Virus genome (UHGV): UHGV-0087143
Length of the DNA: 11,682 bases
Source of the DNA: a virus
Strand: one strand, 5' to 3'
Shown here: positions 1-11,640 of the stretch, piece after piece
Numbering within the stretch: position 1 is the first letter of the stretch
How the letters are laid out: the number at the start of each line of letters is the position of its first letter
Notes under the pieces: generated by a model
What the model saw: the letters and a program-made list of their open reading frames with translations, nothing else
Told to the model about the DNA's origin: nothing
The model's database searches: none
Made by a program: the position numbers and the translations under genes

Positions 1-219
1 CTGATCCTGATCGTCTTGCCTTATTGAATATGATTGCTATTTGCATTTAAAATCGAGACCTGGTTTTTCTACTGAAATGATTATGACTTCAATGACCCTT
101 GAATGAAGTCTATTCGGTTTTCTTTAGATGTTCGCCTCACATAATCTTCAAGTGATGTTCCTTACATCTCCCTAGAGCGTTAAGATAGTTAACTGATTGA
201 GTTTTCAGGGTATGAAAGG

Positions 220-885
220 ATGAGCAACACTACCGACATCTTAAGCACGATAGCTGATATCACTATGGCTGGTACTGCTGTATGGGCTGCATTCAAAGCT
301 AATGATTGGTTTAAAACCAAGCGTCTTGAGAGTGCTGAAAACTTCTATAAAGAAGTACACAATCTCCATAAACGTTACTATTCAGCTATCCAATACGTTG
401 AGGATTCAAGAAGAATATTTGATAGTCAGTATGGGTTGCATTCGCCAATATCTGAACCTAAAGACAAGTCATTGCAATGGGGGGTTAAATCGAACTCTTA
501 CAAAATCATCGCTGAACTAGATTATCTGGCATCGTCACTACAAATGATGGATGCAATGGGTAACAAACTTAGCCCTAAATCGGCTTCACTGGTTAATGAT
601 ATGATGGAAGCACATGGACGATTCTGTAATGATGTGATGAACTTCAATGACTCAGTTTGGAAGGTTATAAGGGCAGGTATAACTGAAGAGAACATCCCAC
701 ATACGCGAGGCTATGTGAACGGCGATTACATGACTATCCTTACCAGTATGGATGAACCTGTAAGAATATCTTTTAGGTTAAAAGAAATCAGTTTTAAAGA
801 TTTTTACCTGCATGAAACTACTATGCAGTCAGTAATAACGAGGCTGAAATCGCTTATCGCCAGAACAGGTAAAAACAGGACATAA
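220..885 (+). CDS. Hypothetical protein, 221 aa, with N-terminal hydrophobic segment (ILSTIADITMAGTAVWAAF)
   Basis: Long ORF from ATG 220; weak SD-like AGGG 9 nt upstream; no domain recognised by eye. The 302-520 track ORF is nested in another frame and treated as spurious. Confidence 0.6.
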   Translation: MSNTTDILSTIADITMAGTAVWAAFKANDWFKTKRLESAENFYKEVHNLHKRYYSAIQYVEDSRRIFDSQYGLHSPISEPKDKSLQWGVKSNSYKIIAELDYLASSLQMMDAMGNKLSPKSASLVNDMMEAHGRFCNDVMNFNDSVWKVIRAGITEENIPHTRGYVNGDYMTILTSMDEPVRISFRLKEISFKDFYLHETTMQSVITRLKSLIARTGKNRT

Positions 886-897
886 ACAGGTTAGTAC

Positions 898-1015
898 CTA
901 TGCAATTTAAAGGCATTTTCCCAAGTATCTATGCAATCCTACACAGATTCTATGCAGTATCGATATAGTCTCTTTTTAGCGTAACCTATTGAAATATATA
1001 GAGAATCTATGAAGT
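898..1015. repeat. Cluster of four CTATG(C/A)A(A/G)T motifs (898-906, 929-937, 950-958, 1007-1015) plus a diverged ~22-bp direct repeat (965-986, 1011-1032)
   Basis: Read directly: cCTATGCAAT, tCTATGCAAT, tCTATGCAGT, tCTATGAAGT, all same strand; atagtctctttttagcgtaacc vs gaagtctcttttcagggtaaac. Confidence 0.5.
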
Positions 1016-1496
1016 CTCTTTTCAGGGTAAACTGTATCGTGTTAGTCGTCCCTCTCCAGACACTACATACAGTGCTATATACAGGGATATATAACGATAT
1101 ATAGTTGTTTGACCACTACCAATATTCCCTCAAAGTGACTATCAAGCTGCTTAACAGTTTCCCATGTGAAAGTTAGGAGGTGATGGTTATAGTTCCTTCG
1201 TAGTTCCTCTTAAAAAATCACTTGCAGACACCTTAATCTCTATACAGATTTCATGTAGAACACGATTAGTACGTAGAAGAGTCATTATGTTAAAAACACA
1301 CTGTGTTTATATCAGTACTGATTTATAAGGGTTTTGTGTATTGGGTGATAAGAGGCTATACAGCACCTTGAGAGCATGTCTTCTAAGTCATTGACATATA
1401 AGGTCACAGAAGTTTGTGTCTGTTACAGAGAAAACTGGACAGGACTTCACAGAACTATAAAATGTTACAGCTATTGATAGGTGAAATCTTCTTGAT

Positions 1497-1553
1497 AGAT
1501 GCTATGAAGTGTGATGAAGGCTTCTTGAGGTGGAGTTAACAGATGCTATGAAG
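1497..1553. repeat. Two perfect copies of 13-mer AGATGCTATGAAG, 44 bp apart (1497-1509, 1541-1553)
   Basis: Exact 13-bp direct repeat; shares the CTATGAAG core with the 898-1015 cluster. Confidence 0.6.
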
Positions 1554-2028
1554 AAAGTCAATAGTTGGTTATAGATATTTTAACTGCTTTTGCAAAGGGG
1601 GGTGCTATATCGTGAATCTGGGGTACTTAACAGCCATCAATCATGAGGTAGATTAGGGGTTGGTACAAGCCCAACTAACCGAATCAACTGTGTAGATATT
1701 TTTTAAGATTATCGGTGAAGGGGGAATGCAGAGGGGGTACTATGATTTTTATAAAAATTTTCAGAAGCCAAATAACCATTGTACAGATTTTATACAATCC
1801 TACCAAGCCTCATAGTTGATTCGATTAGGTGATTCAGTAATGAATTACTTCATGAAGCTAATCTCATAGAAAGCTCTGTAGCGAGTTTTAACCCCATTTT
1901 TAGGGGTAGTCTATAGGGATGTACCACCCACCTTAAAATAAAGGGGTAAAATCGCTTAGAATGCGTTACAGAGCGTCTGAGAAGCTATATTCACAGATTT
2001 TACTAAAGTCTCAGACTTCTAAGTAGTC

Positions 2029-2338
2029 TTTTTAACAGGAGGGGTTCCCCTATGGTCACATATCCCCTCTCTCGTTTAGTGGCCCTTGATAGCACCCGAT
2101 TAATAACCTAGAGAGTATGCCTGTAAAACTTCTGTATCAGGTCAACTATAAGAGGTCTGGATATTACCTTGTAAGATTCCTGGTAGTGATTATGCAGAGG
2201 GCTTGATAAGAGTGTTTAACGGGAGGAAGAGATATCTTTTTAACAGGAGGGTTCTTTCTCATGTATCACCCTCTCTTCCCGCTAAGTAAGCTACACAGAC
2301 CTAGAGAACATGCCTTCACAGCATCTATATCAGGTCAG
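2029..2338. repeat. Two diverged ~100-115-bp modules (about 2029-2145 and 2237-2338), each beginning TTTTTAACAGGAGGG
   Basis: Shared blocks in the same order: TTTTTAACAGGAGGG, CCCTCTCT(C)..TTAG, CCTAGAGA(G/A)(T/C)ATGCCT, TCT(G/A)TATCAGGTCA. Related CTCT(C)TCCCG(C/T)T(A/T)AG boxes recur at about 2727-2740 and 2910-2923. Confidence 0.6.
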
Positions 2339-2425
2339 ATTTAGAGGGTTTTGATAGAGTCTGTAAAGGTACTTGACAGGTAACTATGAAGTTGCTAGGA
2401 AGAGCTGTTTAACGGGAGGAAGAGA
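2213..2425. repeat. Perfect 20-bp direct repeat TGTTTAACGGGAGGAAGAGA (2213-2232 and 2406-2425)
   Basis: Exact match read in sequence; a related GTTTAACGGGGG lies at 3239-3250. Confidence 0.8.
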
Positions 2426-2847
2426 ACCATGAAACCGAAGGTAGGTTCTGTCTTAACAGTGAAGTCTTAAGAAATGTCTTGAGAGTTACCTAAACAAGCC
2501 TCTTAAGTAAAAGACAACACTCCAGAAAGAGTGTCTGTTTAACAAACTTCTCAAAAGCTCTTAAAAAGTCTGTTAAGAGAGGGCTATGTGAACATATCAT
2601 ACCATTTTGTCAATGCTTTTGTCTTTGACCTAAATCAATAAAATGTATCGTTTGATATGGTTTTAAGCAAGACGGCTAAAAAAATCTTTTTAGAGGGGCG
2701 CTTCGCTTGGGGTCACTATGTTCTTTCTCTCCCGTTAAGAGGGAAGTTACAGGGACATTTCAAAGCCCTGATAAGGTAAGCCCGATGATAACAGAAACAG
2801 AGGGCAAAACCACTTATCAACACTGTGAACGAATAACGTAAAGGGCT

Positions 2848-2884
2848 GGTTAAGAAGGTCGGTTAAGAAGGTCGGTTAAGAAGG
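2848..2884. repeat. Tandem array, about 2.8 copies of 13-bp unit GGTTAAGAAGGTC
   Basis: Copies at 2848-2860 and 2861-2873, partial copy 2874-2884; related TTAAGA(A/G)GG boxes at about 2464, 2570, 2735 and 2932. Confidence 0.8.
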
Positions 2885-2950
2885 GAGCTTCCCTTTCTTG
2901 GGTGTCGCTCTTCTCCCGCTTAGTGGATAGCTAAGAAGGCTTGAAGTTAT

Positions 2951-3126
2951 CTGTGAAGGTACTGGACAGTCTTATATATTGGGTGATTACAACTCGTTGA
3001 AAAATAAGTATTTTTAGAAATCACTGTTAAGGTTACAGAGTCAACTGTGAAGAGACTTGTCAGTTCTCTATATTGGGTGATTACAACTTATTGAAAAGTA
3101 AGAACTTTTAGAAATTACTGTCAGAG
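2951..3126. repeat. Two copies of a ~82-bp direct repeat (2951-3032 and 3045-3126), period 94 bp
   Basis: Identical 20-mer core TATATTGGGTGATTACAACT at 2975-2994 and 3069-3088 with ~85% identical flanks; partial third copy TATTGGGTGAT at 1339-1349; CTGTRAAGGTACTTGACAG-like heads also at 2361-2379. Confidence 0.8.
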
Positions 3127-3240
3127 AGGTGAATACTTGATAGATACAGCTTTCCGGTTCTGTCAAGCTATTTTTTAATAGATAGCACAAAATGCTAAAG
3201 ATACCCCTATACCATCTCGTACAGGGGGGGTTGAAGGAGT

Positions 3241-3429
3241 TTAACGGGGGTCTGTGTGGTTATCTGTTCTGGTCCTGTCCTTGAGGTCAAACGACCATTC
3301 ACGACCAAACAATCTGAACACGATAAACACTCTGACGATGAAATAGCGAAGTAGTAAGCCTGCAATCAGCCCAACACCTCCACCAGCCCATACATCAGGT
3401 GACCCCAGCTCAGGAGGGAGATTTACCAT
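3241..3429 (-). CDS. Small predicted membrane protein, 62 aa (one hydrophobic helix GGGVGLIAGLLLRYFIVRVFIVF, charged C-terminus)
   Basis: Track ORF on minus strand, divergent from the 3633 gene; weak SD GAAGG upstream; candidate promoter upstream. Could still be a chance ORF. Confidence 0.3.
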   Translation of the reverse strand: MVNLPPELGSPDVWAGGGVGLIAGLLLRYFIVRVFIVFRLFGREWSFDLKDRTRTDNHTDPR

Positions 3430-3514
3430 TCAATGTACCTTCTGTGTGCAATGCAAAAAAACATGTGACCATTCTCGATAGCCACGCTTCATATTTTCCC
3501 TCTCCCATAAACCC

Positions 3515-3544
3515 ATTATACCATAAATGTTAATAAATTGTTAA
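3515..3544 (-). promoter_or_regulatory. Candidate sigma70-type promoter (minus strand): TTAACA, 18-nt spacer, extended -10 TGGTATAAT
   Basis: Minus-strand -10 TATAAT is the complement of 3515-3520, TG of the extended -10 at 3522-3523, -35 TTAACA is the complement of 3539-3544. Confidence 0.4.
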
Positions 3545-3551
3545 AAAATAC

Positions 3552-3580
3552 TTGACATTAGTCTTTGAAACTGCTAGTAT
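3552..3580 (+). promoter_or_regulatory. Candidate sigma70-type promoter (plus strand): TTGACA, 17-nt spacer, TAGTAT
   Basis: TTGACA at 3552-3557 and TAGTAT at 3575-3580 with exact 17-bp spacing, ~50 nt upstream of the 3633 start codon. Confidence 0.5.
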
Positions 3581-3632
3581 TGTATATATAGTTAACAGGA
3601 AATTAACAAACACTAAGAGGGTCAGAATATGA

Positions 3633-4187
3633 ATGCAGGATTCAGAATTTAGAGCGATGCTTCAGGCATCAAGAGAACGCAACAAGCACAACTCCTACGC
3701 TTACACAGACACCCCCACCAGCTACGAAGTACCAGCCTTTTCCAAAACCGAACGTAAAAACATTGAAGCGGTCATTCGTAGCATTACGCCACGAGACAGA
3801 TTTATGCCAGTACGCAAAGAAAAAGAGAATACTTTAAAAACTTTCTTGATGAGCTTTGATTCTTACGAGCAACTACCATCAAAAATTGAAGATGTAATTA
3901 TCGGTACTTGTCGCAGTCTTGGAAGAGATAATTATCACCGGAAGGTTTTTTATTTACTGCGAAGTCTTGATGAGATTAGTTCAAGCACAGTGACGAGCCA
4001 TCTTCAAAGACAAGCAACCAGACTTAGCTACGAATTACCAAGTGATAAATATTGCGCTAACTTAGCCACTATTTGCATGAAAGTTATTGAGACAATTAAT
4101 CATCATGCGGAAGTTGGAAATATCAGCCTTACAACCAGTGAACCAGACTTTGAATTTGACGTATACGCACAAGCAGAGGAATTTTAA
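3633..4187 (+). CDS. Hypothetical protein, 184 aa, first gene of a rightward operon
   Basis: ORF with SD AAGAGG (3615-3620) upstream of ATG 3633; no domain recognised. The antisense track ORF 4062-4442 is treated as spurious. Confidence 0.65.
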   Translation: MQDSEFRAMLQASRERNKHNSYAYTDTPTSYEVPAFSKTERKNIEAVIRSITPRDRFMPVRKEKENTLKTFLMSFDSYEQLPSKIEDVIIGTCRSLGRDNYHRKVFYLLRSLDEISSSTVTSHLQRQATRLSYELPSDKYCANLATICMKVIETINHHAEVGNISLTTSEPDFEFDVYAQAEEF

Positions 4188-4188
4188 A

Positions 4189-4476
4189 ATGGAAAATAAA
4201 CACACACTAACCAGAGTTACAAAGACAGCCTTTGAAGAACTTAACCGAATCAAAAACATTACAGGTCTGCCACACTCAGCAGTGATGAAGCTTGCAATTA
4301 ACCGTGATATTAACGAACAAGATTTGCTTAATAGTCGCTTAGAGGCTGCAAGACACCATATCAGGATTAAGCAAGATGACCTTGATAGTCTGAAATCTTT
4401 AAATGCTTTTGGACTGGATTTAGCAAGGTTGCTAAGCATCAAAATTCACAAGTTAAAGTTAGAGATGGAGGTTTAA
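4189..4476 (+). CDS. Small putative DNA-binding protein, 95 aa, ribbon-helix-helix-like N-terminus plus C-terminal coiled coil
   Basis: Start chosen at ATG 4189 (GAGGA SD 8 nt upstream, directly after the upstream stop) instead of the overlapping in-frame track start 4087; N-terminal TRVTKTAFEELNRIKNITGLPHSAVMKLAI resembles a strand-helix-helix fold. Motif-level only. Confidence 0.5.
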   Translation: MENKHTLTRVTKTAFEELNRIKNITGLPHSAVMKLAINRDINEQDLLNSRLEAARHHIRIKQDDLDSLKSLNAFGLDLARLLSIKIHKLKLEMEV

Positions 4477-4862
4477 TGTATGACTTTTATAAACATCGTG
4501 ACCATTTGGTAAGATTTGACGGTAAAGTCTGGAAAGACGTAACACAAACCAATAAACCCAAGTTTACCCACCAGCAATTAGCCTCAAGATTTGATATCTG
4601 GACTGAAGCACAAAAAGATAATGGTGATTTCGAGTTTATCAGGGGTTTTGATTATGCTTACGAAGACGACCTTAAAGACGCCATTAAATTAATTGAGAAT
4701 TTCAACTCTATTAAAAATGGTGACAAGCACAAAGCCAATGGCAACAGATACGATAAAGATTTAATCATTGATGCAATCACCAAAGGACAATCACAAAGTT
4801 ATATTTCTGAGAAATACGGTTTATCACGCAGTCAATACTACAAGATTAAAGCGTCTGTGTAA
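4476..4862 (+). CDS. Putative helix-turn-helix DNA-binding protein, 128 aa
   Basis: Start ATG overlaps upstream stop (TAATG, translational coupling); C-terminal IDAITKGQSQSYISEKYGLSRSQYYKIK looks like a resolvase/sigma-region-4-type HTH. Confidence 0.6.
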   Translation: MYDFYKHRDHLVRFDGKVWKDVTQTNKPKFTHQQLASRFDIWTEAQKDNGDFEFIRGFDYAYEDDLKDAIKLIENFNSIKNGDKHKANGNRYDKDLIIDAITKGQSQSYISEKYGLSRSQYYKIKASV

Positions 4863-5000
4863 GCCTGTGAGAATGAGTGAGACTCAAAGATGAGCTACCC
4901 TATTACTAAGGTGTCTCACTCCCTCTGTAACCCGCATGGTTACTGGCCTCAGAATGGCTATTTTGGCAGATTTAAGATGTGTTTTTAGAGGATTTTAAAA

Positions 5001-5324
5001 ATGAACAATTACCCGCTACAGATTTTCGTTGATAGCGACACCGCTCTGATGATTCAGGCTTTCAGTGATTCCGGTGTATCAATTGACTTTGACAGGCTGT
5101 TAAGGCTAATGGCTAATAACTCAGAAACAATTGAAGATTTTATTCAGTCGGTGGAGTTTAACGAGCCTCGAATGATGCTACCAATTAAAGACAGCAACAT
5201 GAAAAGATTGGTTATCGAGCAAACGAACAAATACAGCGTTAGCCCTGAAAGATATCTCAAGGCAGCTATAGCAATTTTGTACGCTGACAATATTTTGGTG
5301 ACGGATTCGAAGGTGGTGCATTAA
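5001..5324 (+). CDS. Hypothetical protein, 107 aa
   Basis: ORF from ATG 5001; no domain recognised. Confidence 0.55.
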   Translation: MNNYPLQIFVDSDTALMIQAFSDSGVSIDFDRLLRLMANNSETIEDFIQSVEFNEPRMMLPIKDSNMKRLVIEQTNKYSVSPERYLKAAIAILYADNILVTDSKVVH

Positions 5325-5389
5325 TGGAATTGGTGATTATCTGTTTTGTATTGATTGGTATGATTGCAGGTGCATCTATTAAAGTATAA
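5324..5389 (+). CDS. Possible 21-aa hydrophobic peptide (MELVIICFVLIGMIAGASIKV)
   Basis: ATG overlaps stop of the 107-aa gene (TAATG); strong SD GAAGGTGG 7 nt upstream; entirely hydrophobic. Below the track length cut-off; speculative. Confidence 0.25.
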   Translation: MELVIICFVLIGMIAGASIKV

Positions 5390-5454
5390 ATGTTACCAAT
5401 CTGTTAAAAAGCTGTTGACAAATAACCTTAAGCATGACATAATTTTAATTATGG

Positions 5455-5481
5455 GAGAGTAATTCTCTCTTATATTTTTTT
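5455..5481 (+). terminator. Candidate rho-independent terminator for the 3633-5389 operon
   Basis: Stem GAGAG/CTCTC (5455-5459 / 5465-5469), loop TAATT, followed by TATATTTTTTT. Confidence 0.4.
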
Positions 5482-5659
5482 CAATAATCCGATGGATGGA
5501 TGGATATTCTGAGTTGGTGAGGTATGTTCTATACCGAACATTCTGAAAGGTGCAATGCTTTTCGCTACATGGCCTCTTATATAACCTGAGAGGTCATCTC
5601 GAAAAGTACTCTTGTTCATTCGTTTGAATCCTTCAGAAGTTTTAATTTCTTCACCTTAT

Positions 5660-5702
5660 GAATAGCCCTTTATAAGAAATTATCTAGGGCTATTCAGTTT
5701 TT
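5660..5702 (+). terminator. Candidate stem-loop/terminator: 10-bp stem GAATAGCCCT / AGGGCTATTC, 16-nt loop, then AGTTTTT
   Basis: Perfect 10-bp inverted repeat at 5660-5669 and 5686-5695; T-run only on the plus strand. Confidence 0.35.
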
Positions 5703-5776
5703 AAAAAGCATACTTGGCAAACCGCCTTTTAAGCCTCTTCTAAGTTCGAGGATGTCAGGTGTGCTTTTTAAAAACT
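5696..5776. promoter_or_regulatory. Perfect 15-bp inverted repeat pair AGTTTTTAAAAAGCA (5696-5710) / TGCTTTTTAAAAACT (5762-5776), 51 bp apart; operator-like
   Basis: Exact reverse complements; each contains the palindrome TTTTTAAAAA; ends 36 bp upstream of the 5812 start codon. Confidence 0.4.
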
Positions 5777-5811
5777 GAAACATAAATTATCTTAGAAGAG
5801 GAAAGGTATTA

Positions 5812-6516
5812 ATGGCTATCCGTGATGAAAATGAAATGATTATTGAAAGCCGACCAAGTGCACTTGATATTCACGAATTAACTTTGCGTGAATCTTTTGA
5901 TAGAGCTTGGCGGGAATCACACGAAGTAAATAAAGGTCCATATATTCCACCAGAACCACTCGAGATTCCAAGAGTTGAAATTGATTTTTCTATGAACGAA
6001 CAGTGTGAACTTGATTTGAAGTTGAAGCTACAACGCCGATATTTCCAAGCTATTAAAGACTCTCAAGAAGCAATGAGAAGTGTTTACGAGAAAATTCAGT
6101 CCAAGCTTGAAGACGAAATCGACGAAATGGCTATTTTGATGGAGCTTCAAACCAATTCTTATGCTTATTTCTCTCGACTAGACCGTGACGGTTGGGGGTA
6201 TGACCCTGTAGAGATTGGTAAAGTGATTGCAGATTTACCAGAAGGTCAAAGGGTTATTCGTACGGAAAGGGCCATCAGAGCGCCACATCGACTGTCTCTA
6301 ATTGTTGCTGATAAATCACAAGCTGAGCTTGAAGAAATTGCCAAAGAGAAACTGATGAAAGCAAGAGAAAATGAGATTAATTTGCTGAAATCAAGACTGG
6401 CTAAGCTGATTAGTGACCATCAAGCGCTGGCTAAGGAGTACCGTCAAGAGTTGGCACAGATTATCAGCTTCAATGATTTTCTGAGTGTTCCACGAGAATT
6501 TAGCAAGGCTGTTTGA
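5812..6516 (+). CDS. Hypothetical acidic protein, 234 aa, with C-terminal coiled-coil-like region
   Basis: ORF with SD GAGGAAAGG upstream of ATG 5812; no domain recognised. Confidence 0.65.
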   Translation: MAIRDENEMIIESRPSALDIHELTLRESFDRAWRESHEVNKGPYIPPEPLEIPRVEIDFSMNEQCELDLKLKLQRRYFQAIKDSQEAMRSVYEKIQSKLEDEIDEMAILMELQTNSYAYFSRLDRDGWGYDPVEIGKVIADLPEGQRVIRTERAIRAPHRLSLIVADKSQAELEEIAKEKLMKARENEINLLKSRLAKLISDHQALAKEYRQELAQIISFNDFLSVPREFSKAV

Positions 6517-6539
6517 TTATGAATTAAAAGAGGTGATTA

Positions 6540-6752
6540 ATGTTTGAAGAACGTTTAGAGACTATTCGGTCTGTTTGCGAAAGACTCCAGCTACAACCAA
6601 ATAGACAAAAGCTACGAATTAAGAATAACCGTCATTACATCACCTCACACAAACCAAAAACACGCAAGATTCCAAAGTGGTGTCTTGATAAATTACCAAG
6701 TGATTGTCAGATTGTCGGTGAAGATGGTAATTATTATCTTGTCAGACATTAA
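6540..6752 (+). CDS. Small basic protein, 70 aa (three Cys, Lys/Arg-rich centre)
   Basis: ORF with SD GAGGTG (6530-6535) before ATG 6540; function unknown. Confidence 0.5.
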   Translation: MFEERLETIRSVCERLQLQPNRQKLRIKNNRHYITSHKPKTRKIPKWCLDKLPSDCQIVGEDGNYYLVRH

Positions 6753-6802
6753 AAAAGAATTGGTTGGGTATATGAGATAGGTTCTATCGAATCTATAGTA
6801 CG

Positions 6803-6844
6803 GGGAGAGATTATCGATATTATTCGGTAGTTTCTCCCTTTTTT
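6803..6844 (+). terminator. Candidate terminator: stem GGGAGA/TCTCCC around a 24-nt loop (containing palindrome TATCGATA), followed by TTTTTT
   Basis: GGGAGA 6803-6808, TCTCCC 6833-6838, T6 at 6839-6844; loop unusually large so strength uncertain. Confidence 0.4.
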
Positions 6845-6893
6845 GTATATGAGGATAGTCTTCTATCCGAAGTCTATGAGGTGAAAAATATGA

Positions 6894-8978
6894 ATGAGCA
6901 AATTTACAGTTGATAGTTTTATTGTTGAGCTGGGCTTCAGTGAAAACGTTATTAAGGGATTGCAAAGAGTTGAAAAGGCAGCTTTGCAGTCAGCACAAAG
7001 AATTGAACGTAATTTGAATAGAGCGTTTAAGGTCGATACCAAGCAACTTGACAGCAATTTAACGGCTTCTTTAAAGTCAATGGAAGGGAAAATTAATAAG
7101 ACCTTTGACAAGATTGAGCAGCGTCTTAAAAACACTAGAGCGTTTAAGATTAAAACGGAAATTGAGGATACTTTAAAGCCACTTAGACAGCCAAGACAGC
7201 CACGAATTAGCGGCAACAGAGCAATCACAGCAGCTTATTCAGCGAATATGAGCAAGTTAAAGGGCTTTGACCCTATTTTGCAGAAATACATCAAATCTCA
7301 GTTTTACGGGCTATCTGCTAAAGCTGGGTCAATGGATAATTCAAAATTCAATGAGAAGTTAGCTCAGCTAAATGCTTCAGTCAGAGAAGCAATCACTAAA
7401 GCCAGAGGTCATACATCCACCAGCAAAAACAATCACAGTGAAAATGCTTCAAATGGTTTAGATGTATTAGCTACAAGTGCAATCAAAGCAGGTACAGCCA
7501 TTTATAGTTTTCAGACAGCCTTAGAAGCTTATAGGAAGGTTATGGAAGTTGGTCTGAAAAAAGAAGCATCACAACGAGCGGCACAATTCGTTTTAGGTGA
7601 TGAAGGTGCTAAACGAGCTACAGAATTTGTTAAGAATCTTGCTGATAGTAGTGGTGTAGACCAGATTGAAACATTAAGCAGTTTTGCTAAGTTTTCCGCT
7701 GGTGCTGGTGATATGAATGCAGACCAGAAAGAATCCTTATTTTCTAATGTGATTGGTACATCCCGACTAATGGGTTTAAGCACTGATGAGATTAACGGGA
7801 TTCTAAAAGCTTTCGAGCAGATGGCGAGCAAGGGCAAGATTCAAGCTGAAGAATTACGCGGTCAGTTAGGGGACAGAATGGCAGGTGCTTTTCAGTTATT
7901 TGCCAGAAGTCTTGGGATGACTACAGAAGAATTAGACAAGGCCATGAAGGACGGTAAGGTTCTTTCTAAAGATGTTCTTCCTAAAGTATCCGCTGAAATG
8001 GGAAGGATGATTGATAAAGCTGGTGGATGGGAAAAGATTATTAACTCTACTCAGACGCAGTTAGGCCGCCTTTCTAATTCATGGAATAATAATCTGGCCT
8101 TAATGTTCGACGGTTCACAGGAAGGTTTAACAGACTTTACAAGGTCACTGACTAATTTACTTAATTCACTAGGTGGTCAATCTAAAAATCTTGGTGAACA
8201 TTTTGGCGACTTGATGAAAAGCATGTCAAACGGTGTTGATGATTTAACCACGATTAGCTACCGAGCACAGGGATTCTTTGACAGAGTGACCCTTGCTTAC
8301 AGAGAATTAAATGACACTCAAAAAGCTGTAGCTGATGGTATCGCAAATGGCCTGTTAAGTGCATTAAAGGGGCTTGCTGGTATAGTCGCTGTAAGGTCTG
8401 GGATTGGTGCTGTAGGTGGTATCTGGAACTTAATTAGGGCTATTTCCACGCTTGGAAATGTAGCAAATACAGCAGCAGGAAGAATCAATTCACGTTCTGC
8501 TGGTAGTGTTGAAGGTGGTAAAGGAAAATTATCTGTAGCTGATGCAATTACCAAAGTAATGATTGTCGGTATGGCAACTGATGTGATTAACTCCATTGTT
8601 AAACCACTCTATGAACGCCAGATGAGTAAGTCAGATAATCCAATTGATAAAGTTGTAAGGTCAAAGGTGGAACCCACAGACCAAGCATTGACTGGTGACA
8701 TGAACTCTTTAGCTGCTGTTTTATGGGCTATGGTTCAGGGCAAATCAAAAGATGTTCCACAGTTTTCACCGGAAGCATTAAATAATCTGAAAGGTCGAGT
8801 GGAAACATTCACACAAGATTTAAAGGTTATCAAGCCGTCAGTAAATATTCAGCCTCAGACAATCAATATCACAACTCAGACGGTACTTGATGGAAAGGTT
8901 ATTGATGAAAGAACCACATCGCATATTAATCGTATGCAGGAAGATACCTTGATTAGCTCAGCTTACCCAGAGGAATAA
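6894..8978 (+). CDS. Phage tail tape measure protein-like, 694 aa
   Basis: Internal segment ...GLSTDEINGILKAFEQMASKGKIQAEELRGQLGDRMAGAFQLFARSLGMTTEELDKAMKDGKV... matches the conserved tape-measure core (ELRGQLGERLPGA-type motif); helical N-terminus and Gly/Ala-rich hydrophobic segment (GIANGLLSALKGLAGIVAVRSGIGAVGGIW) typical of tape measure proteins; SD GAGGTG (6878-6883) before ATG 6894. The four antisense track ORFs inside it are treated as spurious. Confidence 0.8.
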   Translation: MSKFTVDSFIVELGFSENVIKGLQRVEKAALQSAQRIERNLNRAFKVDTKQLDSNLTASLKSMEGKINKTFDKIEQRLKNTRAFKIKTEIEDTLKPLRQPRQPRISGNRAITAAYSANMSKLKGFDPILQKYIKSQFYGLSAKAGSMDNSKFNEKLAQLNASVREAITKARGHTSTSKNNHSENASNGLDVLATSAIKAGTAIYSFQTALEAYRKVMEVGLKKEASQRAAQFVLGDEGAKRATEFVKNLADSSGVDQIETLSSFAKFSAGAGDMNADQKESLFSNVIGTSRLMGLSTDEINGILKAFEQMASKGKIQAEELRGQLGDRMAGAFQLFARSLGMTTEELDKAMKDGKVLSKDVLPKVSAEMGRMIDKAGGWEKIINSTQTQLGRLSNSWNNNLALMFDGSQEGLTDFTRSLTNLLNSLGGQSKNLGEHFGDLMKSMSNGVDDLTTISYRAQGFFDRVTLAYRELNDTQKAVADGIANGLLSALKGLAGIVAVRSGIGAVGGIWNLIRAISTLGNVANTAAGRINSRSAGSVEGGKGKLSVADAITKVMIVGMATDVINSIVKPLYERQMSKSDNPIDKVVRSKVEPTDQALTGDMNSLAAVLWAMVQGKSKDVPQFSPEALNNLKGRVETFTQDLKVIKPSVNIQPQTINITTQTVLDGKVIDERTTSHINRMQEDTLISSAYPEE

Positions 8979-9212
8979 ACAATGTTAGAGCTACTAATAT
9001 TTATTGCCACACATGGCAACCTATTAATCTTTATCTAGTATGACGACTCAACTATGAATAGTCGAATGCTACGTGAAATCTCCTGAACAGATATACCCAC
9101 TGAAAAATAGAATTTACGTAGCTCACGCTTAACAGAGAAAATACTTATATATCAAAGGCTTGGTTAAAAATGACTGAAATACACTAAGTCTTTGAAATCA
9201 AAGGAGAATTTA

Positions 9213-9986
9213 ATGATTTACTCTAATCAGATTCGTTACAGTGGCAAAGATGGCATCTATTTCCACTTAAGAGATAATGTAGATGCCTTCTTAACTTTAT
9301 CAGCAACTGAGAACATGGAATTTGATAGCCCTATGCAGGTGACTACACAGAACATGCAATCAGGGCAAACCGTCACAGATAATGTGCAAAGAGCACCCAG
9401 AACAATCACTATTAGTGGTGTCGTTGTAGTTGGCTATGAAGGAAGCTTATTATTAACTCGTCAGGGTCAATTAGTAGAAAACTTCATCGACACCCTTGAA
9501 AGCTGGCGTGACCAGAAGCAGATTATTTCGGTCATCTGTAAAGATGGTATCAAGATTGATGACTCCATTATTACAAGTTTTAAAGCCTCTAAAGATGTTG
9601 GTATTTCAAATGGTCTAAGAATCCAGCTAACTTTTCAGGAAATTAACTTTAAAGCTGTTGTGGGGCAGACTGATATCTCGGCTGCAACTGGAAAAGCCGC
9701 GACTACGAATGATGGTGGTGTGACCAGTAAAAAGAATGCGGGTAACGTGACCACTGAACGCAATAACGCACCTATGCTGATGTGTCAGGAACTGTACAGT
9801 TACTCAGCATCTGAGCTATCTGATGAAGCGCTAAGGGTCCGTAGCAATTGCTCTAAAAATGTCACGGTGAAAGATGGTGTAAGCACCTTCACAGCCTCAG
9901 CTAATGAGCAGGCTTCAAAAGTGCTTAAGTCGGGTAATGCTTTACGGAAGTTTTCTGTGAATCCGAATAAGAAGGGCACTTATTGA
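9213..9986 (+). CDS. Hypothetical protein, 257 aa, downstream of the tape measure gene (possibly tail-associated by position only)
   Basis: Start chosen at ATG 9213 (SD AAGGAG 6 nt upstream) instead of the in-frame track start at 9192, which is a TTG codon; no domain recognised. Confidence 0.65.
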
Positions 9987-9990
9987 GACA

Positions 9991-10013
9991 TAAAAAGGGG
10001 CTTCATAGCCCCT
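9991..10013 (-). terminator. Rho-independent terminator for the recombinase gene, shared between convergent genes
   Basis: GC-rich stem AGGGGC/GCCCCT (9996-10001 / 10008-10013), 6-nt loop; on the minus strand the stem is followed by a U-run (complement of A-run 9992-9996); lies between the 9986 and 10019 stop codons. Confidence 0.6.
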
Positions 10014-10018
10014 GAAAA

Positions 10019-11539
10019 TTACAGTTGATAAGCGTCAATATCCAGTAGCTCTTTATCAGCAATTTCAAAGATTGGTGACCCATCATTTAGCGGTAACGGG
10101 TTTGTAGGTATGGTGATTTCAGTGTCGTTCTGTAGCGTTACAGTTACCGAATCCTTACCCAATGTAAGCCCTTTTAGATGTTTGGACAAAATCAACTGAC
10201 ACTCGACACGACCCGCTTTAGTTGTCAGGTCAATATCTTTAAGCTGGGGTAGTTCCTTATCAGTGAGTGAAGCCTTACGCCTCATGTTATCAATAGTAGT
10301 CTGTAGTTCTGTGCGCTTCTGGTTAAGTCCCTTCACCTGTGCTTTCAACTCTGTAATGTCATCCATTTCAAGAAGTAGGGCGGTAGCTTTCTTGATTCTG
10401 GCTGTGACAATTTCAACCTCATGCTGTAGAGATGCAATCTTCCCCTCTGCTTCTCCATCATTCCCCACGTCAATCATCCCCAGAAAATTATCAATCATCC
10501 ATCGGTCAAACGGTTTACGCTTCAACGGTGGAACATCACAGCGACCGTCTAAGTGGTTATTGCACCTGTAGACCCCTGCATACTTATTCTTGGTTCCGGT
10601 AGGATGGACACTAGCCCCACACTGACACCGGAATAATCCCTTGAAGATGTTAATCGTTAATGGGTTATCACTTGCAGGTGTGCGGCCTTTACGATTCTTG
10701 TCGAGAATCTCTTGAGCTTTATTGAACGTTGCAGCATCTATAGCGGCTTCGTAGTAGTTCGGTATAGCGGGGCGGTCATTACGCTGTGATGCTGGTAACG
10801 TGCCTATTGTTGTCTCCGACCTTAAGATGGTGCGTACAGAATGGACGCTAAACCCATTAGCATCTTTACGGCGACTAAACGACTTTATACCGTTGCTTTG
10901 AAGGTGACGGGCGATGTTATGCAGACTTTCACCACTTAGCAGCAGCTTGAAAATCAGTCTTACAGTCTCAGCGTGTTCATTGAGTTTGAGAGTATCGGGG
11001 TCAATCCATCCGGGAACCATCTTTGTTAAACGTTGTTTACCAGCAAGGGCAAGTTTTGCACGTTGTTTCCACTTCTCGCTAACACGGAAAGACTTCTGCT
11101 TACTCTCCTGATGCGCTAGGTAGCTTTTAACCCGCTGAATGATTGAGATTCCTAAATCATCGGATAGAGCATCCCTTGTGTAGATTAGCCCATCCTGTAG
11201 AGTGTGAATCTCGATACCATGAGCAATAATGCGATTCATCAAGGCTTCTGTTTCAAGATGCTCTAATCGGCCTATACGGTCGATACTCTCAACTAGCAGA
11301 ATTGTACCTCCTGGAAACTCCCCAGCCTCAATACGGGCTAACATGTCACCAAACTGACCAGTAAGGTGTTTACCTTTGTAACCGGATAGACCCTCATCAC
11401 TGAAAGACGCTACTACTTGAGCATCGCTATTCTTCTTCAACCATTGTTTGAACAGGTCGTTTTGTCGTCTGGTTGAATCAGCACCTTCAGCACCTTGTGT
11501 GGCTGATGAGAATCTCAAGTATGTTATTACGGTTCTCAC
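10019..11539 (-). CDS. int: Large serine recombinase (serine integrase), 506 aa
   Basis: N-terminal resolvase-type catalytic domain with the serine nucleophile motif (YLRFSSATQ) and downstream LLVESIDRIGR; central recombinase region; Cys-rich zinc-ribbon-like segment (CQCGAS...YRCNNHLDGRCD); C-terminal coiled-coil-like region. GTG start with SD GGGAG 9 nt upstream. Antisense track ORFs 10263-10571 and 10914-11111 treated as spurious. Confidence 0.9.
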   Translation of the reverse strand: MRTVITYLRFSSATQGAEGADSTRRQNDLFKQWLKKNSDAQVVASFSDEGLSGYKGKHLTGQFGDMLARIEAGEFPGGTILLVESIDRIGRLEHLETEALMNRIIAHGIEIHTLQDGLIYTRDALSDDLGISIIQRVKSYLAHQESKQKSFRVSEKWKQRAKLALAGKQRLTKMVPGWIDPDTLKLNEHAETVRLIFKLLLSGESLHNIARHLQSNGIKSFSRRKDANGFSVHSVRTILRSETTIGTLPASQRNDRPAIPNYYEAAIDAATFNKAQEILDKNRKGRTPASDNPLTINIFKGLFRCQCGASVHPTGTKNKYAGVYRCNNHLDGRCDVPPLKRKPFDRWMIDNFLGMIDVGNDGEAEGKIASLQHEVEIVTARIKKATALLLEMDDITELKAQVKGLNQKRTELQTTIDNMRRKASLTDKELPQLKDIDLTTKAGRVECQLILSKHLKGLTLGKDSVTVTLQNDTEITIPTNPLPLNDGSPIFEIADKELLDIDAYQL

Positions 11540-11611
11540 GGTGATAAACTCCCATGCAATTGATTATCATTTAAAGATGAACTTATAAACGTTATGGCTA
11601 ATGCTACAATG

Positions 11612-11640
11612 CCGAATAGCTACAATACAATGACCCTTGA
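11612..11640. other. Candidate recombinase attachment-site junction (right end), partner of 90-117
   Basis: CCGAATAG, 8-nt spacer, CAATGACCCTTGA, ~75 bp upstream of the recombinase start; sequence beyond 11640 turns GC-rich (CCTCGCCGCTTCCCCTGGCCGACG). Confidence 0.3.

What the first reader, a model, noticed from the sequence alone, without database searches (positions are those of the whole stretch)
2951..3126. Duplicated ~82-bp unit with identical 20-mer core, period 94 bp
Two long direct repeats about nine helical turns apart (identical 20-mer at 2975-2994 and 3069-3088), with a partial third copy at 1339-1349 and related heads at 2361-2379 that contain TTGACA-like hexamers. Size and spacing fit either tandem small-RNA genes or paired protein-binding sites.
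Basis: seen in the sequence. Interest (0 to 1): 0.5.

Follow-up and report, generated by a model that had tools for sequence, protein, structure and literature searches.

The report
Conserved tandem DNA module in phage-related island
The two 94-bp repeats are real and conserved across hundreds of Escherichia genomes; they behave like a protein-binding DNA control site, not small-RNA genes, and lie in an uncharacterised 11.5-kb mobile island that carries tail genes of Felix-O1-type phages.

Summary
Units 2945-3038 and 3039-3132 are 82% identical over 83 nt, share an exact 20-mer, and repeat every 94 bp.

The unit occurs in 1, 2 or 3 tandem copies in 73 related loci, with a period of 94-95 bp. 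Almost the whole unit is built of invariant blocks in fixed register.

It is not a structured RNA. Single-sequence folds are no better than shuffles, the consensus fold energy is about 0 on both strands, there is no covariation and no Rfam hit. A 12-codon ORF inside it does not evolve like a coding sequence.

The unit region together with the adjacent 80-bp block is better conserved than the neighbouring gene (90-95% against 60-80% identity).

The window is an 11.5-kb island inserted at the tonB start codon. It has a large serine recombinase, a Felixounavirus-type tape measure and hub gene pair, and a 2.35-kb ORF-free stretch. The k-mer vocabulary of that stretch specifically matches the terminal-repeat region of Felixounavirus phages.

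Best reading: a phased, duplicated protein-binding cis element (boxes, then an IHF-like A/T-rich segment, then boxes). It probably serves a helper-dependent DNA transaction or transcription control. The exact function is inferred, not shown.

The claimed third copy at 1339-1349 is at chance level. The head at 2361-2379 is probably real.

The parts
2945..3038 (.). Unit a (94 bp), left copy of the tandem pair
   Evidence: E = 1.9e-26 against the unit profile. The a-type consensus comes from 48 distinct copies.
3039..3132 (.). Unit b (94 bp), right copy
   Evidence: E = 1.6e-28. The b-type consensus comes from 42 distinct copies. Single-copy loci are a-head/b-tail hybrids.
2951..2970 (.). Head of unit a: invariant box CTGTGAAG followed by the dyad ACTG-GA-CAGT, which contains the -35-like hexamer TGGACA
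   Evidence: CTGTGAAG, CT and CAG are invariant or nearly so in 104 copies. The outer dyad pair covaries: A-T in 12, G-C in 8 of 29.
3045..3064 (.). Head of unit b: CTGTGAAG followed by ACTTGTCAGT, which contains TTGTCA
2975..2994 (.). Core 20-mer of unit a, TATATTGGGTGATTACAACT
   Evidence: Exact repeat. Variant forms of the core (TATAT-TGGGTGAT, TATATATGGCTAAT and recombinants of the two) occur in either copy position.
3069..3088 (.). Core 20-mer of unit b
2990..3021 (.). A/T-rich segment of unit a. On the minus strand it carries an IHF-like site, TTCAA-NNAG-TTG, then TTGAAAAATAAG....TTTTAGAAAT
   Evidence: Invariant blocks TTGAAAAATAA and TTTTAGAA. The two variable columns 61-62 fall among the four N positions of WATCAANNNNTTR (together with the published consensus). 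A minus-strand promoter-like match, TTAACA-18-TATTTT, lies at 3030-3001.
3084..3115 (.). A/T-rich, IHF-like segment of unit b
   Evidence: The 40-bp window 3080-3119 is 80% A+T, among the highest in the island.
3021..3038 (.). Tail of unit a: TCACTGTTAAGGTTACAG, made of the boxes CTGTTAAGG and GTTACAG
   Evidence: TTACTGT is invariant. CTGTTAAGG and ACTGTTAAG are shared 9-mers with the wV8 terminal-repeat region.
3115..3125 (.). Tail of unit b: TTACTGTCAGA, a degenerate box whose minus strand reads CTGACA
3122..3203 (.). Near-invariant 80-bp block directly after unit b. It holds GATAGATAC, a minus-strand TTGACA at 3166-3161, and the palindrome CTATTTTTTAATAG
   Evidence: The 3101-3200 tile is the best-conserved 100-bp tile of 801-4200: found in 69 of 71 loci at 96.9% identity.
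3204..3227 (-). Terminator-like hairpin ending the 62-aa gene. It separates that gene from the block and the units
   Evidence: stem of 9 pairs followed by a T-rich tail on the minus strand.
2361..2379 (+). Solitary relative of the unit head (CTGTAAAGGTACTTGACAG), inside the second copy of a 193-bp duplication
   Evidence: D10; E = 0.048.
890..3240 (.). ORF-free stretch that holds the units at its right edge. It is enriched in TGTTAA-type boxes, and its k-mer vocabulary matches the Felixounavirus terminal-repeat region

Best explanation
The pair is a conserved, tandemly duplicated cis-acting DNA module. It is read as double-stranded DNA by proteins, not as an RNA or a peptide.

**Layout of one unit (94/95 bp), all in fixed register:**
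1. A head box, CTGTGAAG, plus a short dyad, CTG-N2-CAG.
2. A 20-bp core.
3. An A/T-rich segment with an IHF-like site, TTCAA-N4-TTG.
4. A tail box, TTACTGT(T/C)A.

Two units lie on the same DNA face (9 helical turns apart). An almost invariant 80-bp block follows them.

**The boxes.** The head and tail boxes resemble a TGTNAA-type motif. That motif also forms operator-like pairs around the island's main promoter. It is enriched across the island's ORF-free stretch and fills the terminal-repeat region of Felixounavirus phages.

**Mechanism I commit to (inferred).** A box-binding protein occupies the head and tail boxes. It is either island-encoded (candidates are the RHH-like 95-aa product of 4189-4476 and the HTH protein of 4476-4862) or supplied by the phage. 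Host IHF bends the A/T-rich middle. The resulting looped nucleoprotein complex, with the invariant block, marks the start site of a helper-dependent DNA transaction of the excised island.

**How likely.**
- Packaging recognition of the lambda cosB kind, or replication initiation: together about 0.3.
- Transcription control at this boundary: about 0.25.

**Shown:** the repeat, its conservation, its block structure, the absence of RNA structure and of coding signal, the motif sharing with the phage terminal region, and the nature of the island.

**Inferred:** that proteins bind, which proteins bind, and what the complex does.
For: - **Real and old duplication.** The two copies within one island are 82% identical, while orthologous copies in different islands look closer to each other in the 16-copy alignment. 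Both copies are kept in 52 of 73 loci; 20 loci have one copy and 1 has three.
- **Block structure.** In 104 distinct copies the blocks CTGTGAAG, CT..CAG, TATAT.TGG.T.ATTACAACT, TTGAAAAATAA, TTTTAGAA and TTACTGT are invariant or nearly so. Indels are almost absent, so the spacing is constrained.
- **Stronger constraint than the neighbouring gene.** The 301-nt unit region is 90-95% identical in 302 of 412 genomes. The adjacent promoter plus 184-aa gene is 60-80% identical in 239 of 368 genomes. The block at 3101-3200 is the best-conserved tile of the locus.
- **No RNA structure or covariation** and no Rfam family.
- **Dyad in the head.** The outer pair is A-T in 12 and G-C in 8 of 29 copies. The centre is only 2 nt, too short for an RNA hairpin loop.
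- **IHF-like site.** The only two variable columns of this segment fall among the four N positions of the IHF consensus.
- **Box motifs.** TGTTAA occurs 10 times in the ORF-free stretch against 2.4 +/- 1.5 expected. It also occurs as 2 + 2 copies, 11 bp apart, flanking the main promoter. TTAACAG occurs 9 times against 0.75 expected and CTGTGAAG 4 times against 0.11.
- **Link to the phage terminal region.** The island's ORF-free stretch shares more 8-, 9- and 10-mers with the wV8 stretch that holds the terminal repeat than with nearly any other of 435 wV8 windows (z about 6). It shares 154 9-mer positions against 82-88 +/- 13 in order-3/4 Markov simulations. The 581-bp repeat of phage D4 maps inside that wV8 stretch.
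- **Nature of the island.** Serine recombinase, tape measure and Dit-like genes. Synteny with wV8 gp73-gp74, with 95% nt identity over 510 nt. A circular or concatemeric 11.2-kb metagenome contig.
Against: - No binding protein is identified. The RHH assignment rests on a sub-threshold DndE match (E = 0.024), and the HTH match is also sub-threshold.
- The unit has no homologue in wV8, D4 or T5-like phages or in the phage collection. A helper terminase that recognised it would have no matching site in the helper genome. A packaging role therefore needs an island-encoded specificity factor, and none was found.
- No replication initiator is recognisable in the island.
- The units share only 8 9-mer positions with the phage terminal region. 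That is less per kb than the rest of the ORF-free stretch.
- The IHF-like match has one mismatch, and matches of that quality are expected several times by chance in 23 kb (my estimate).
- One copy suffices in 27% of loci.
- High conservation could also come from frequent recombination at a module boundary rather than from function.
Confidence: 0.5

Rival explanations
1. Tandem host-RNA-polymerase promoters. Each unit would carry a leftward sigma-70-type promoter (-35 TTAACA or CTGACA, 18-bp spacer, -10 TATTTT). A third would sit in the block (TTGACA at 3166-3161, 18 bp, TATCAA). Their transcripts would run left into the ORF-free or cargo region. They could regulate it by antisense, express leftward cargo genes, or prime DNA synthesis as tandem promoters do at the phage T7 primary origin.
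For: - The scan finds TTAACA-18-TATTTT on the minus strand at 3030-3001, 9 of 12 matches.
- Both hexamers lie in invariant or near-invariant blocks of the unit.
- The block's TTGACA is conserved.
- Several relatives have a minus-strand recombinase or AP2 gene further left.
Against: - Only 8-9 of 12 matches with a suboptimal 18-bp spacer. The region yields 15 promoter-like matches against 7.7 +/- 3.0 in shuffles, so single matches carry little weight.
- In this window there is no leftward ORF to express.
- In Dam-bearing relatives the next gene to the left is on the opposite strand.
- Conservation covers the whole 85 bp, far more than two hexamers.
- GC skew of the ORF-free stretch is positive, like that of rightward-transcribed genes.
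Confidence: 0.2
2. Tandem small-RNA genes: two transcripts of about 80-90 nt acting as regulators or as antitoxin-like repeats.
For: - The size and tandem layout resemble sRNA arrays or toxI-type repeats.
- The units are strongly conserved.
- A small membrane-protein gene lies nearby on the opposite strand.
Against: - Folding is no better than shuffles on either strand.
- The consensus structure energy is about 0 and there are no compensatory changes.
- The one apparent compensatory change seen by eye (AAAAAT/ATTTTT against AAAAGT/ACTTTT) is not kept in other copies.
- There is no Rfam match and no terminator after either unit.
- No toxin gene lies downstream in either direction.
Confidence: 0.06
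3. Iteron-type replication origin: direct repeats bound by an island-encoded initiator, as in PLE, SaPI or P4.
For: - Direct repeats in the non-coding region of a satellite-like island.
- A/T-rich segments inside each unit.
- The circular or concatemeric contig suggests an extrachromosomal form.
Against: - There are only 1-3 copies of a 94-bp unit, not 3 or more iterons of about 20-30 bp.
- No Rep, primase or helicase gene is detectable. The product of the adjacent 184-aa gene has no known fold.
- The site is much better conserved than every neighbouring protein. That is the opposite of the site-initiator co-variation seen for iteron origins.
- There is no DnaA box.
Confidence: 0.12
4. No function of its own. 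The duplication would be a neutral slip in a conserved boundary sequence that is kept uniform by recombination between island variants. The unit sits exactly where the variable left part meets the conserved right part.
For: - Sequence to the left of unit a differs between islands, and sequence to its right is shared.
- Copy number varies from 1 to 3.
- The core variants are shuffled between copy positions, which indicates frequent recombination or conversion.
Against: - The two copies have diverged to 82% identity yet keep the same invariant blocks. That indicates purifying selection acting on each copy separately.
- Substitutions cluster in a few columns rather than being spread evenly.
Confidence: 0.12
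5. A 12-codon micro-ORF in each unit: (T/A)TG GGT GAT TAC AAC ... TTT TAG.
For: The frame and the TAG stop are kept in all copies. One core variant changes the TTG start to ATG.
Against: - Variable positions are mostly non-synonymous: codon 2 position 2, codon 3 position 1, codon 6 position 2, codon 11 position 1.
- There is no excess of third-position change, and runs of codons are invariant at all three positions.
- There is no Shine-Dalgarno sequence upstream (read from the sequence).
Confidence: 0.02

Closest known systems
Phage lambda cosB (R3-I1-R2-R1) and other terminase small-subunit recognition (pac) sites
   Same: A module of about 100 bp made of short conserved boxes in fixed register. 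An IHF-type bend site lies between the boxes. It sits in an element that must be packaged by phage machinery.
   Different: No cleavage site, no small terminase and no binding were shown. There is no sequence similarity. The putative helper has direct terminal repeats, not cos ends. The unit is absent from the helper genomes examined.
Iteron origins of phage satellites (PLE ori, SaPI ori, P4 ori/crr)
   Same: Direct repeats in a non-coding stretch of an integrative, phage-dependent island.
   Different: Those iterons are about 20-30 bp, occur in 3 or more copies next to the gene of their initiator, and co-vary with it. Here the units are 94 bp, in 1-3 copies, with no recognisable initiator, and the site is better conserved than the proteins.
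Box arrays of the Felixounavirus terminal-repeat region (wV8 13885-15540; D4 1-581 and flanks)
   Same: The short-motif vocabulary is shared (CTGTTAAG, GTTAAGAAGG, TGTTACAG, CTGTAAAG). The island's ORF-free stretch matches this phage region better than nearly any other part of the phage genome.
   Different: The similarity is at motif level only. The 94-bp unit as such has no phage counterpart, and the function of the phage arrays is itself unknown.
Repeated promoter/leader modules of Felixounavirus early genes (wV8 DR_1 to DR_9, 40-80 bp)
   Same: Direct repeats of tens of bp in intergenic DNA of the related phage. Some contain TTGACA-type hexamers.
   Different: Profiles of DR_1, DR_2 and DR_8 find nothing significant in the island. 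The phage repeats each precede a gene, whereas the island units precede none.
toxI-type tandem RNA repeats (type III toxin-antitoxin)
   Same: Tandem direct repeats in a phage-related defence or mobile context.
   Different: toxI units are about 36 nt, fold into pseudoknots and precede a toxin gene. Here there is no structure, no covariation and no downstream gene.

Membership tests
Structured small RNA / any Rfam family | Match to a curated covariance model | tested here: not met
   cmscan of the whole window at E <= 1 gives only two weak hits, both at 5643-5795, and none in 2900-3240.
Structured small RNA / any Rfam family | Thermodynamic stability above shuffled controls | tested here: not met
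   z = +1.08, +0.73, +1.82 and +0.63 for the two units on both strands. Sliding windows over 2900-3149 give z >= 0.
Structured small RNA / any Rfam family | Conserved secondary structure with compensatory changes | tested here: not met
   RNAalifold on 29 diverse copies gives -0.07 kcal/mol (+ strand) and -0.41 kcal/mol (- strand). The + strand has 0 pairs changed on both sides. The - strand has 1, and it belongs to a 3-bp mini-stem.
Sigma-70 promoter | TTGACA and TATAAT-like hexamers 16-18 bp apart | tested here: inconclusive
   On the minus strand there is TTAACA-18-TATTTT in unit a (9 of 12) and CTGACA-18-TACTTT in unit b (by eye). On the plus strand the -35-like TGGACA/TTGTCA has no acceptable -10 hexamer 16-18 bp downstream. 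The background rate of such matches is high (15 found against 7.7 expected).
Iteron replication origin | Three or more short iterons next to the gene of their initiator protein | tested here: not met
   There are 1-3 copies of a 94-bp unit. No Rep, primase or helicase appears in the Pfam, PHROGs, NCBIfam or PADLOC scans. The 184-aa neighbour has no known fold.
Iteron replication origin | Adjacent A/T-rich unwinding element and DnaA boxes | tested here: inconclusive
   The unit cores are 75-80% A+T over 40 bp but are not the A/T-richest spots of the island. No conserved DnaA box is present. The CTATCCACT-like sequence at 2921-2929 is not kept in relatives.
IHF binding site | WATCAANNNNTTR with an A/T-rich 5' flank | tested here: inconclusive
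   The minus strand reads TTTCAA-NNAG-TTG, with one mismatch (A2 to T). The two variable columns fall among the four N positions. A match of this quality is expected several times by chance in 23 kb (my estimate). Binding is not testable here.
Terminase recognition site copied from the helper (as P4 cos = P2 cos) | The same site is present in the helper phage genome | tested here: not met
   The unit profile finds nothing in wV8, the D4 ends or T5-like repeats (best E = 0.68). blastn of 890-3640 against 50,697 phage records gives no hit in 2900-3240.
Known phage-satellite families (PICI, cfPICI, P4-like, PLE, PICMI) | Family marker genes (PICI int-alpA-pri/rep; P4 alpha, delta, sid, psu; PLE repA; capsid genes of cfPICI) | tested here: not met
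   Only a large serine recombinase, a tape measure protein and a Dit-like protein are recognisable. The other core proteins have no family.
Phage satellite in the general sense | Integrative, excisable element of about 10-15 kb that lacks a full virion gene set but carries helper-related genes | tested here: met
   The island spans 103-11640 and is flanked by a 13-bp direct repeat. It has a serine recombinase, an 11.2-kb contig with a 55-bp terminal overlap and no chromosomal genes, and a gp73/gp74-like pair syntenic with wV8. Helper-dependent transfer itself is not testable here.

The most novel reading that the evidence does not exclude
The window is a member of an undescribed family of satellites of virulent Felix-O1-type myophages. 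These satellites bring their own tape measure and tail-hub proteins. Their 2.3-kb ORF-free stretch imitates the terminal-repeat region of the helper. The 94-bp units plus the invariant block are the satellite-specific recognition site that diverts a direct-terminal-repeat packaging or replication machinery onto an 11-kb island.
Probability: 0.25. Interest if true: 0.75.

Novelty: new variant of a known kind. Interest (0 to 1): 0.5.

Why it matters
**The unit.** Conserved non-coding modules are usually where a mobile element touches host or helper machinery. This one is the best-conserved part of an island present in about 7.6% of complete E. coli genomes, so it is the obvious handle for finding out how the island is controlled or moved.

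**The island.** If it proves to be a satellite of Felixounavirus, it would be an E. coli satellite of a virulent myophage that encodes tail components. I found none described in the literature searched. It would then affect the use of Felix-O1-type phages in typing, biocontrol and therapy.

**If the unit is only a regulatory repeat,** the finding is ordinary.

Tried and rejected
- **Rfam** at permissive threshold: nothing in the region. No tRNAs.
- **RNA folding** of units and sliding windows: no stability signal. **RNAalifold** on both strands: no structure.
- **Apparent compensatory change** in AAAAAT-AAGT-ATTTTT against AAAAGT-AAGA-ACTTTT: not upheld in other copies.
- **12-codon ORF:** rejected on its substitution pattern.
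- **By-eye checks**, none of which fits: sigma-54 promoter, CRP site, LexA box (CTGT-N8-ACAG; here the spacing is N11), DnaA box, F-type nic site.
- **Unit profile against wV8, the D4 ends and T5-like terminal repeats:** no hit. Smith-Waterman alignment of the units against the D4 concatemer junction: only the boxes align, at shuffle level for unit b.
- **My impression that island hairpins near 2216-2295 resemble the wV8 DR_2/DR_6 leaders:** profiles of DR_1, DR_2 and DR_8 give no significant hit, so it is dropped.
- **Pattern scan of one genome per species:** true relatives only in E. albertii; the other 47 hits are single chance matches.
- **Viral-contig scans:** only close relatives from isolate genomes.
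- **184-aa neighbour:** homologues are all unnamed Escherichia, Shigella or Salmonella proteins. The AlphaFold model has pLDDT 69 and no PDB fold match.
- **PADLOC:** no defence family.
- **A/T-richness:** does not single out the units.
- **Seven literature searches:** no description of this island or of any Felixounavirus satellite.

Full report
**1. The observation**

The repeat finder reports 2945-3027 and 3039-3121 as two copies of 83 nt, 82% identical and 94 bp apart. The 20-mer TATATTGGGTGATTACAACT is exact at 2975-2994 and 3069-3088 and occurs nowhere else in the window, even with up to five mismatches. The second copy matches the first at BLAST E = 7e-19.

The claimed third partial copy is an exact 11-mer at 1339-1349. 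By my arithmetic an 84-nt unit is expected to have about 0.5 chance 11-mer recurrences in this window. A profile of the unit scores that region at E = 0.31. I treat it as chance.

The head at 2361-2379 is 17/19 identical to head a and contains TTGACA. It scores E = 0.048 against the profile and is probably a true relative of the head only.

**2. What surrounds it**

*The island.*
- Both ends of the window match the tonB region of E. coli. In records without the insert the two end pieces are contiguous.
- A 13-bp direct repeat, CAATGACCCTTGA, lies at 90-102 and 11628-11640. The tonB reading frame starts at 11630.
- The window is therefore an island of about 11.5 kb inserted at the tonB start codon.

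*Its genes.*
- A large serine recombinase (10019-11539, minus strand).
- A tape measure protein (6894-8978).
- A Dit-like tail protein (9192-9986).
- Several proteins with no family in Pfam, PHROGs, NCBIfam or PADLOC.

*Link to Felixounavirus.*
- The tape measure and Dit-like genes are in the same order as gp73-gp74 of Felixounavirus wV8.
- Nucleotides 9237-9746 are about 95% identical to many Felixounaviruses.
- At protein level the Dit-like product is 76% identical to gp74 and the tape measure 30% identical to gp73. The best phage relatives of the tape measure are also Felixounavirus-like.
- No other island protein has a wV8 homologue.
- The island has 36-42% G+C in the ORF-free stretch and structural genes (up to 47% in the recombinase gene), comparable to the 39% reported for these phages (PMC3185647).

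*Evidence of mobility.* A human-associated metagenome contig of 11,233 bp has a 55-bp terminal overlap. It carries the whole gene set and no chromosomal gene. This fits an excised circle or a concatemer.

*Literature.* I found no paper describing this island or any Felixounavirus satellite.

**3. The ORF-free stretch**

Positions 890-3240 contain no ORF of note, and RefSeq leaves the equivalent stretch unannotated in relatives. It holds other duplications: a 193-bp pair at 2106-2491 and a 13-nt unit repeated three times at 2847-2885.

It is enriched for short motifs:

| Motif | Observed | Expected |
|---|---|---|
| TTAACAG/CTGTTAA | 9 | 0.75 |
| CTGTGAAG | 4 | 0.11 |
| CTATGAAG | 4 | 0.13 |
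| GTTACAG (all on + strand) | 5 | 0.48 |
| TGTTAA | 10 | 2.4 +/- 1.5 |

Four TGTTAA boxes flank the island's main promoter: two upstream and two downstream, each pair 11 bp apart. This looks like an operator arrangement.

*Comparison with the phage.*
- wV8 has its own ORF-free stretch (13885-15540) filled with CTTGTTAG, CTGTTAAG, TGTTACAG and GTTAAGAAGG boxes about one helical turn apart.
- The 581-bp direct terminal repeat of phage D4 maps to wV8 14351-14953, inside that stretch. A 581-bp repeat is also reported for phage Pr103Blw (PMC8303462).
- Of 435 sliding windows over wV8, this stretch shares the most 8- and 9-mers (and close to the most 10-mers) with the island's ORF-free DNA (z about 6).
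- The two share 154 9-mer positions, against 82-88 +/- 13 in order-3/4 Markov simulations (maximum 125 of 300). A T5-like non-coding control shares 31.
- The similarity is one of vocabulary, not of alignable sequence.

**4. The unit across relatives**

*Distribution.*
- The 301-nt region around the units is found in 412 of 5426 complete E. coli genomes.
- A scan of one genome per species finds true relatives only in E. albertii.
- From E. coli, viral-contig and metagenome loci I collected 73 loci: 52 with two copies, 20 with one and 1 with three. The copies are always tandem and always in the same place.
- Single copies are a-head/b-tail hybrids, as expected from unequal crossing-over.
- The period is 95 bp in the other two-copy loci.

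*Sequence constraint.* In 104 distinct copies, CTGTGAAG, CT..CAG, TATAT.TGG.T.ATTACAACT, TTGAAAAATAA, TTTTAGAA and TTACTGT are invariant or nearly so. Variation is confined to a few columns and indels are almost absent.

*Conservation relative to neighbours.*
- The unit region is 90-95% identical in most genomes, whereas the adjacent 184-aa gene is 60-80% identical in most.
- The 80-bp block just right of unit b is the best-conserved tile of the locus: present in 69 of 71 loci at 96.9% identity.

**5. RNA and coding tests**

- Neither strand of either unit folds better than shuffled sequence.
- Sliding windows show no signal over 2900-3149. The only strongly structured piece of the ORF-free stretch is 1850-1999.
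- RNAalifold on 29 diverse copies gives essentially zero consensus energy and no compensatory pairs on either strand.
- Rfam has nothing in the region.
- A 12-codon frame is preserved, but its variable sites are mostly non-synonymous and not concentrated at third positions.
- The unit is therefore neither a structured RNA nor a peptide gene.

**6. DNA-level features**

- The head contains a dyad, N-CTG-N2-CAG-N'. Its outer pair is A-T in 12 and G-C in 8 of 29 copies. With a 2-nt centre this cannot be an RNA hairpin, and it suits a dimeric DNA-binding protein. The caveat is that the sequences are related by descent.
- The A/T-rich middle carries, on the minus strand, TTCAA-NNAG-TTG. This is one mismatch from the IHF consensus, and the two variable columns fall among the four unspecified (N) positions.
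- Promoter-like hexamers exist on the minus strand (TTAACA or CTGACA, 18 bp, TATTTT), but they are weak and the background of such matches is high.
- The plus-strand -35-like hexamers in the heads lack an acceptable -10 partner.

**7. What I conclude**

*Shown:* a conserved, duplicated, non-coding DNA module without RNA structure, at the boundary between the variable and the conserved parts of a Felixounavirus-related integrative island. It is flanked by motifs of a family shared with the phage's terminal-repeat region.

*Inferred:* it is a phased protein-binding platform (boxes, an IHF-type bend, boxes). Together with the invariant block it nucleates a complex for packaging or replication of the excised island, or for transcription control.

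*Against a packaging site copied from the helper:* the unit has no counterpart in wV8, D4, T5-like phages or the phage collection.

*Against an iteron origin:* no initiator is recognisable, and the site is better conserved than any neighbouring protein.

*Dead end:* the 184-aa neighbour gave a medium-confidence model with no known fold.

**8. Novelty and score**

Tandem cis-acting repeats in the non-coding DNA of mobile elements are a known kind of feature. This one is a new variant in an apparently undescribed island family. On its own the finding deserves moderate interest. Most of its value lies in what it points to: a possible satellite of virulent Felix-O1-type phages with its own tail genes.

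Noticed in passing
window 90-102 and 11628-11640; tonB ORF from 11630: The island is bounded by a 13-bp direct repeat, CAATGACCCTTGA, that overlaps the tonB start codon. The insertion places about 11.5 kb between the tonB coding sequence and the upstream DNA that normally precedes it (window 1-89), where its native promoter would be expected. tonB expression may therefore be altered in carriers.
   Followed up: partly
window 6894-9986 against wV8 43257-46282 (L010/L011): The island carries only two phage structural genes. They are syntenic with Felixounavirus gp73 (tape measure, 30% aa identity) and gp74 (Dit-like hub, 76% aa identity, with 95% nt identity over 510 nt). This suggests recent exchange with these virulent phages, either as a satellite or as a tail-assembly decoy.
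   Followed up: partly
window 890-3240 against wV8 13885-15540 and D4 (L069 1-1100, L070 2390-3440): The k-mer vocabulary of the ORF-free stretch matches the phage's terminal-repeat region better than nearly any other part of the phage genome (z about 6). Shared motifs include GTTAAGAAGG, CTGTTAAG and TGTTACAG.
   Followed up: yes
window 1557-1601: This is the best local match of the right boundary of the D4 terminal repeat (GTTA..GATATTTTAA..TGCAAAGGGG). The score is 31, against shuffles of 21 +/- 2 with a maximum of 32. It is a weak lead to a possible end of packaged island DNA.
   Followed up: partly
window 1850-1999: The only strongly structured piece of the ORF-free stretch: MFE -47.5 kcal/mol, z = -4.3 to -4.8. 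A long stem pairs GCTCTGTAGCG with GCGTTACAGAGC.
   Followed up: partly
window 1949-1991; L008 838-861 and 4001-4028; L009 4001-4028: A 28-43-nt match to the terminal repeats of T5-like Epseptimavirus phages. It covers a promoter-like TTAAAA-18-TAGAAT and the sequence just downstream.
   Followed up: partly
window 3528-3607 and 5378-5420: TGTTAA boxes 11 bp apart lie on both sides of the main rightward promoter (TTGACA at 3552, TAGTAT ending at 3580). The same upstream layout recurs before a second TTGACA at 5415. This looks like operators for an unidentified repressor.
   Followed up: partly
window 2106-2491, with an inverted copy at 2720-2738: A 193-bp tandem duplication with an identical 20-mer, TGTTTAACGGGAGGAAGAGA, at 2213 and 2406. 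An inverted 19-nt relative (84% complementary) lies at 2720-2738.
   Followed up: no
window 2847-2885: A 13-nt unit, GGTTAAGAAGGTC, in three tandem copies just left of the units. Relatives L002 and L003 have two copies.
   Followed up: no
window 3241-3429 (minus strand): A 62-aa small hydrophobic protein gene between the units and the divergent promoters. It is kept in frame across relatives, including an in-frame 12-nt indel. Its function is unknown.
   Followed up: partly
window 4189-4476: A 95-aa product with a weak, sub-threshold DndE/ribbon-helix-helix-like N-terminus (E = 0.024). It is a candidate DNA-binding regulator of the island.
   Followed up: partly
window 5693-5779: A 27-nt inverted repeat (89% complementary, 33-nt loop) between two genes. 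It gives weak sub-threshold Rfam hits (rhtB at 29 bits).
   Followed up: no
L112 (ERZ506742 NODE_633, 11,233 bp): A metagenome contig with a 55-bp terminal overlap that carries the complete element and no chromosomal genes. This fits a circular or concatemeric free form of the island.
   Followed up: partly
L002, L004-L007 (relatives in E. coli): The left part of the island is a variable cargo region. Different relatives carry a small serine recombinase, a Dam methyltransferase, an AP2/ERF-type regulator or an HNH endonuclease, and the islands sit at several chromosomal sites.
   Followed up: no
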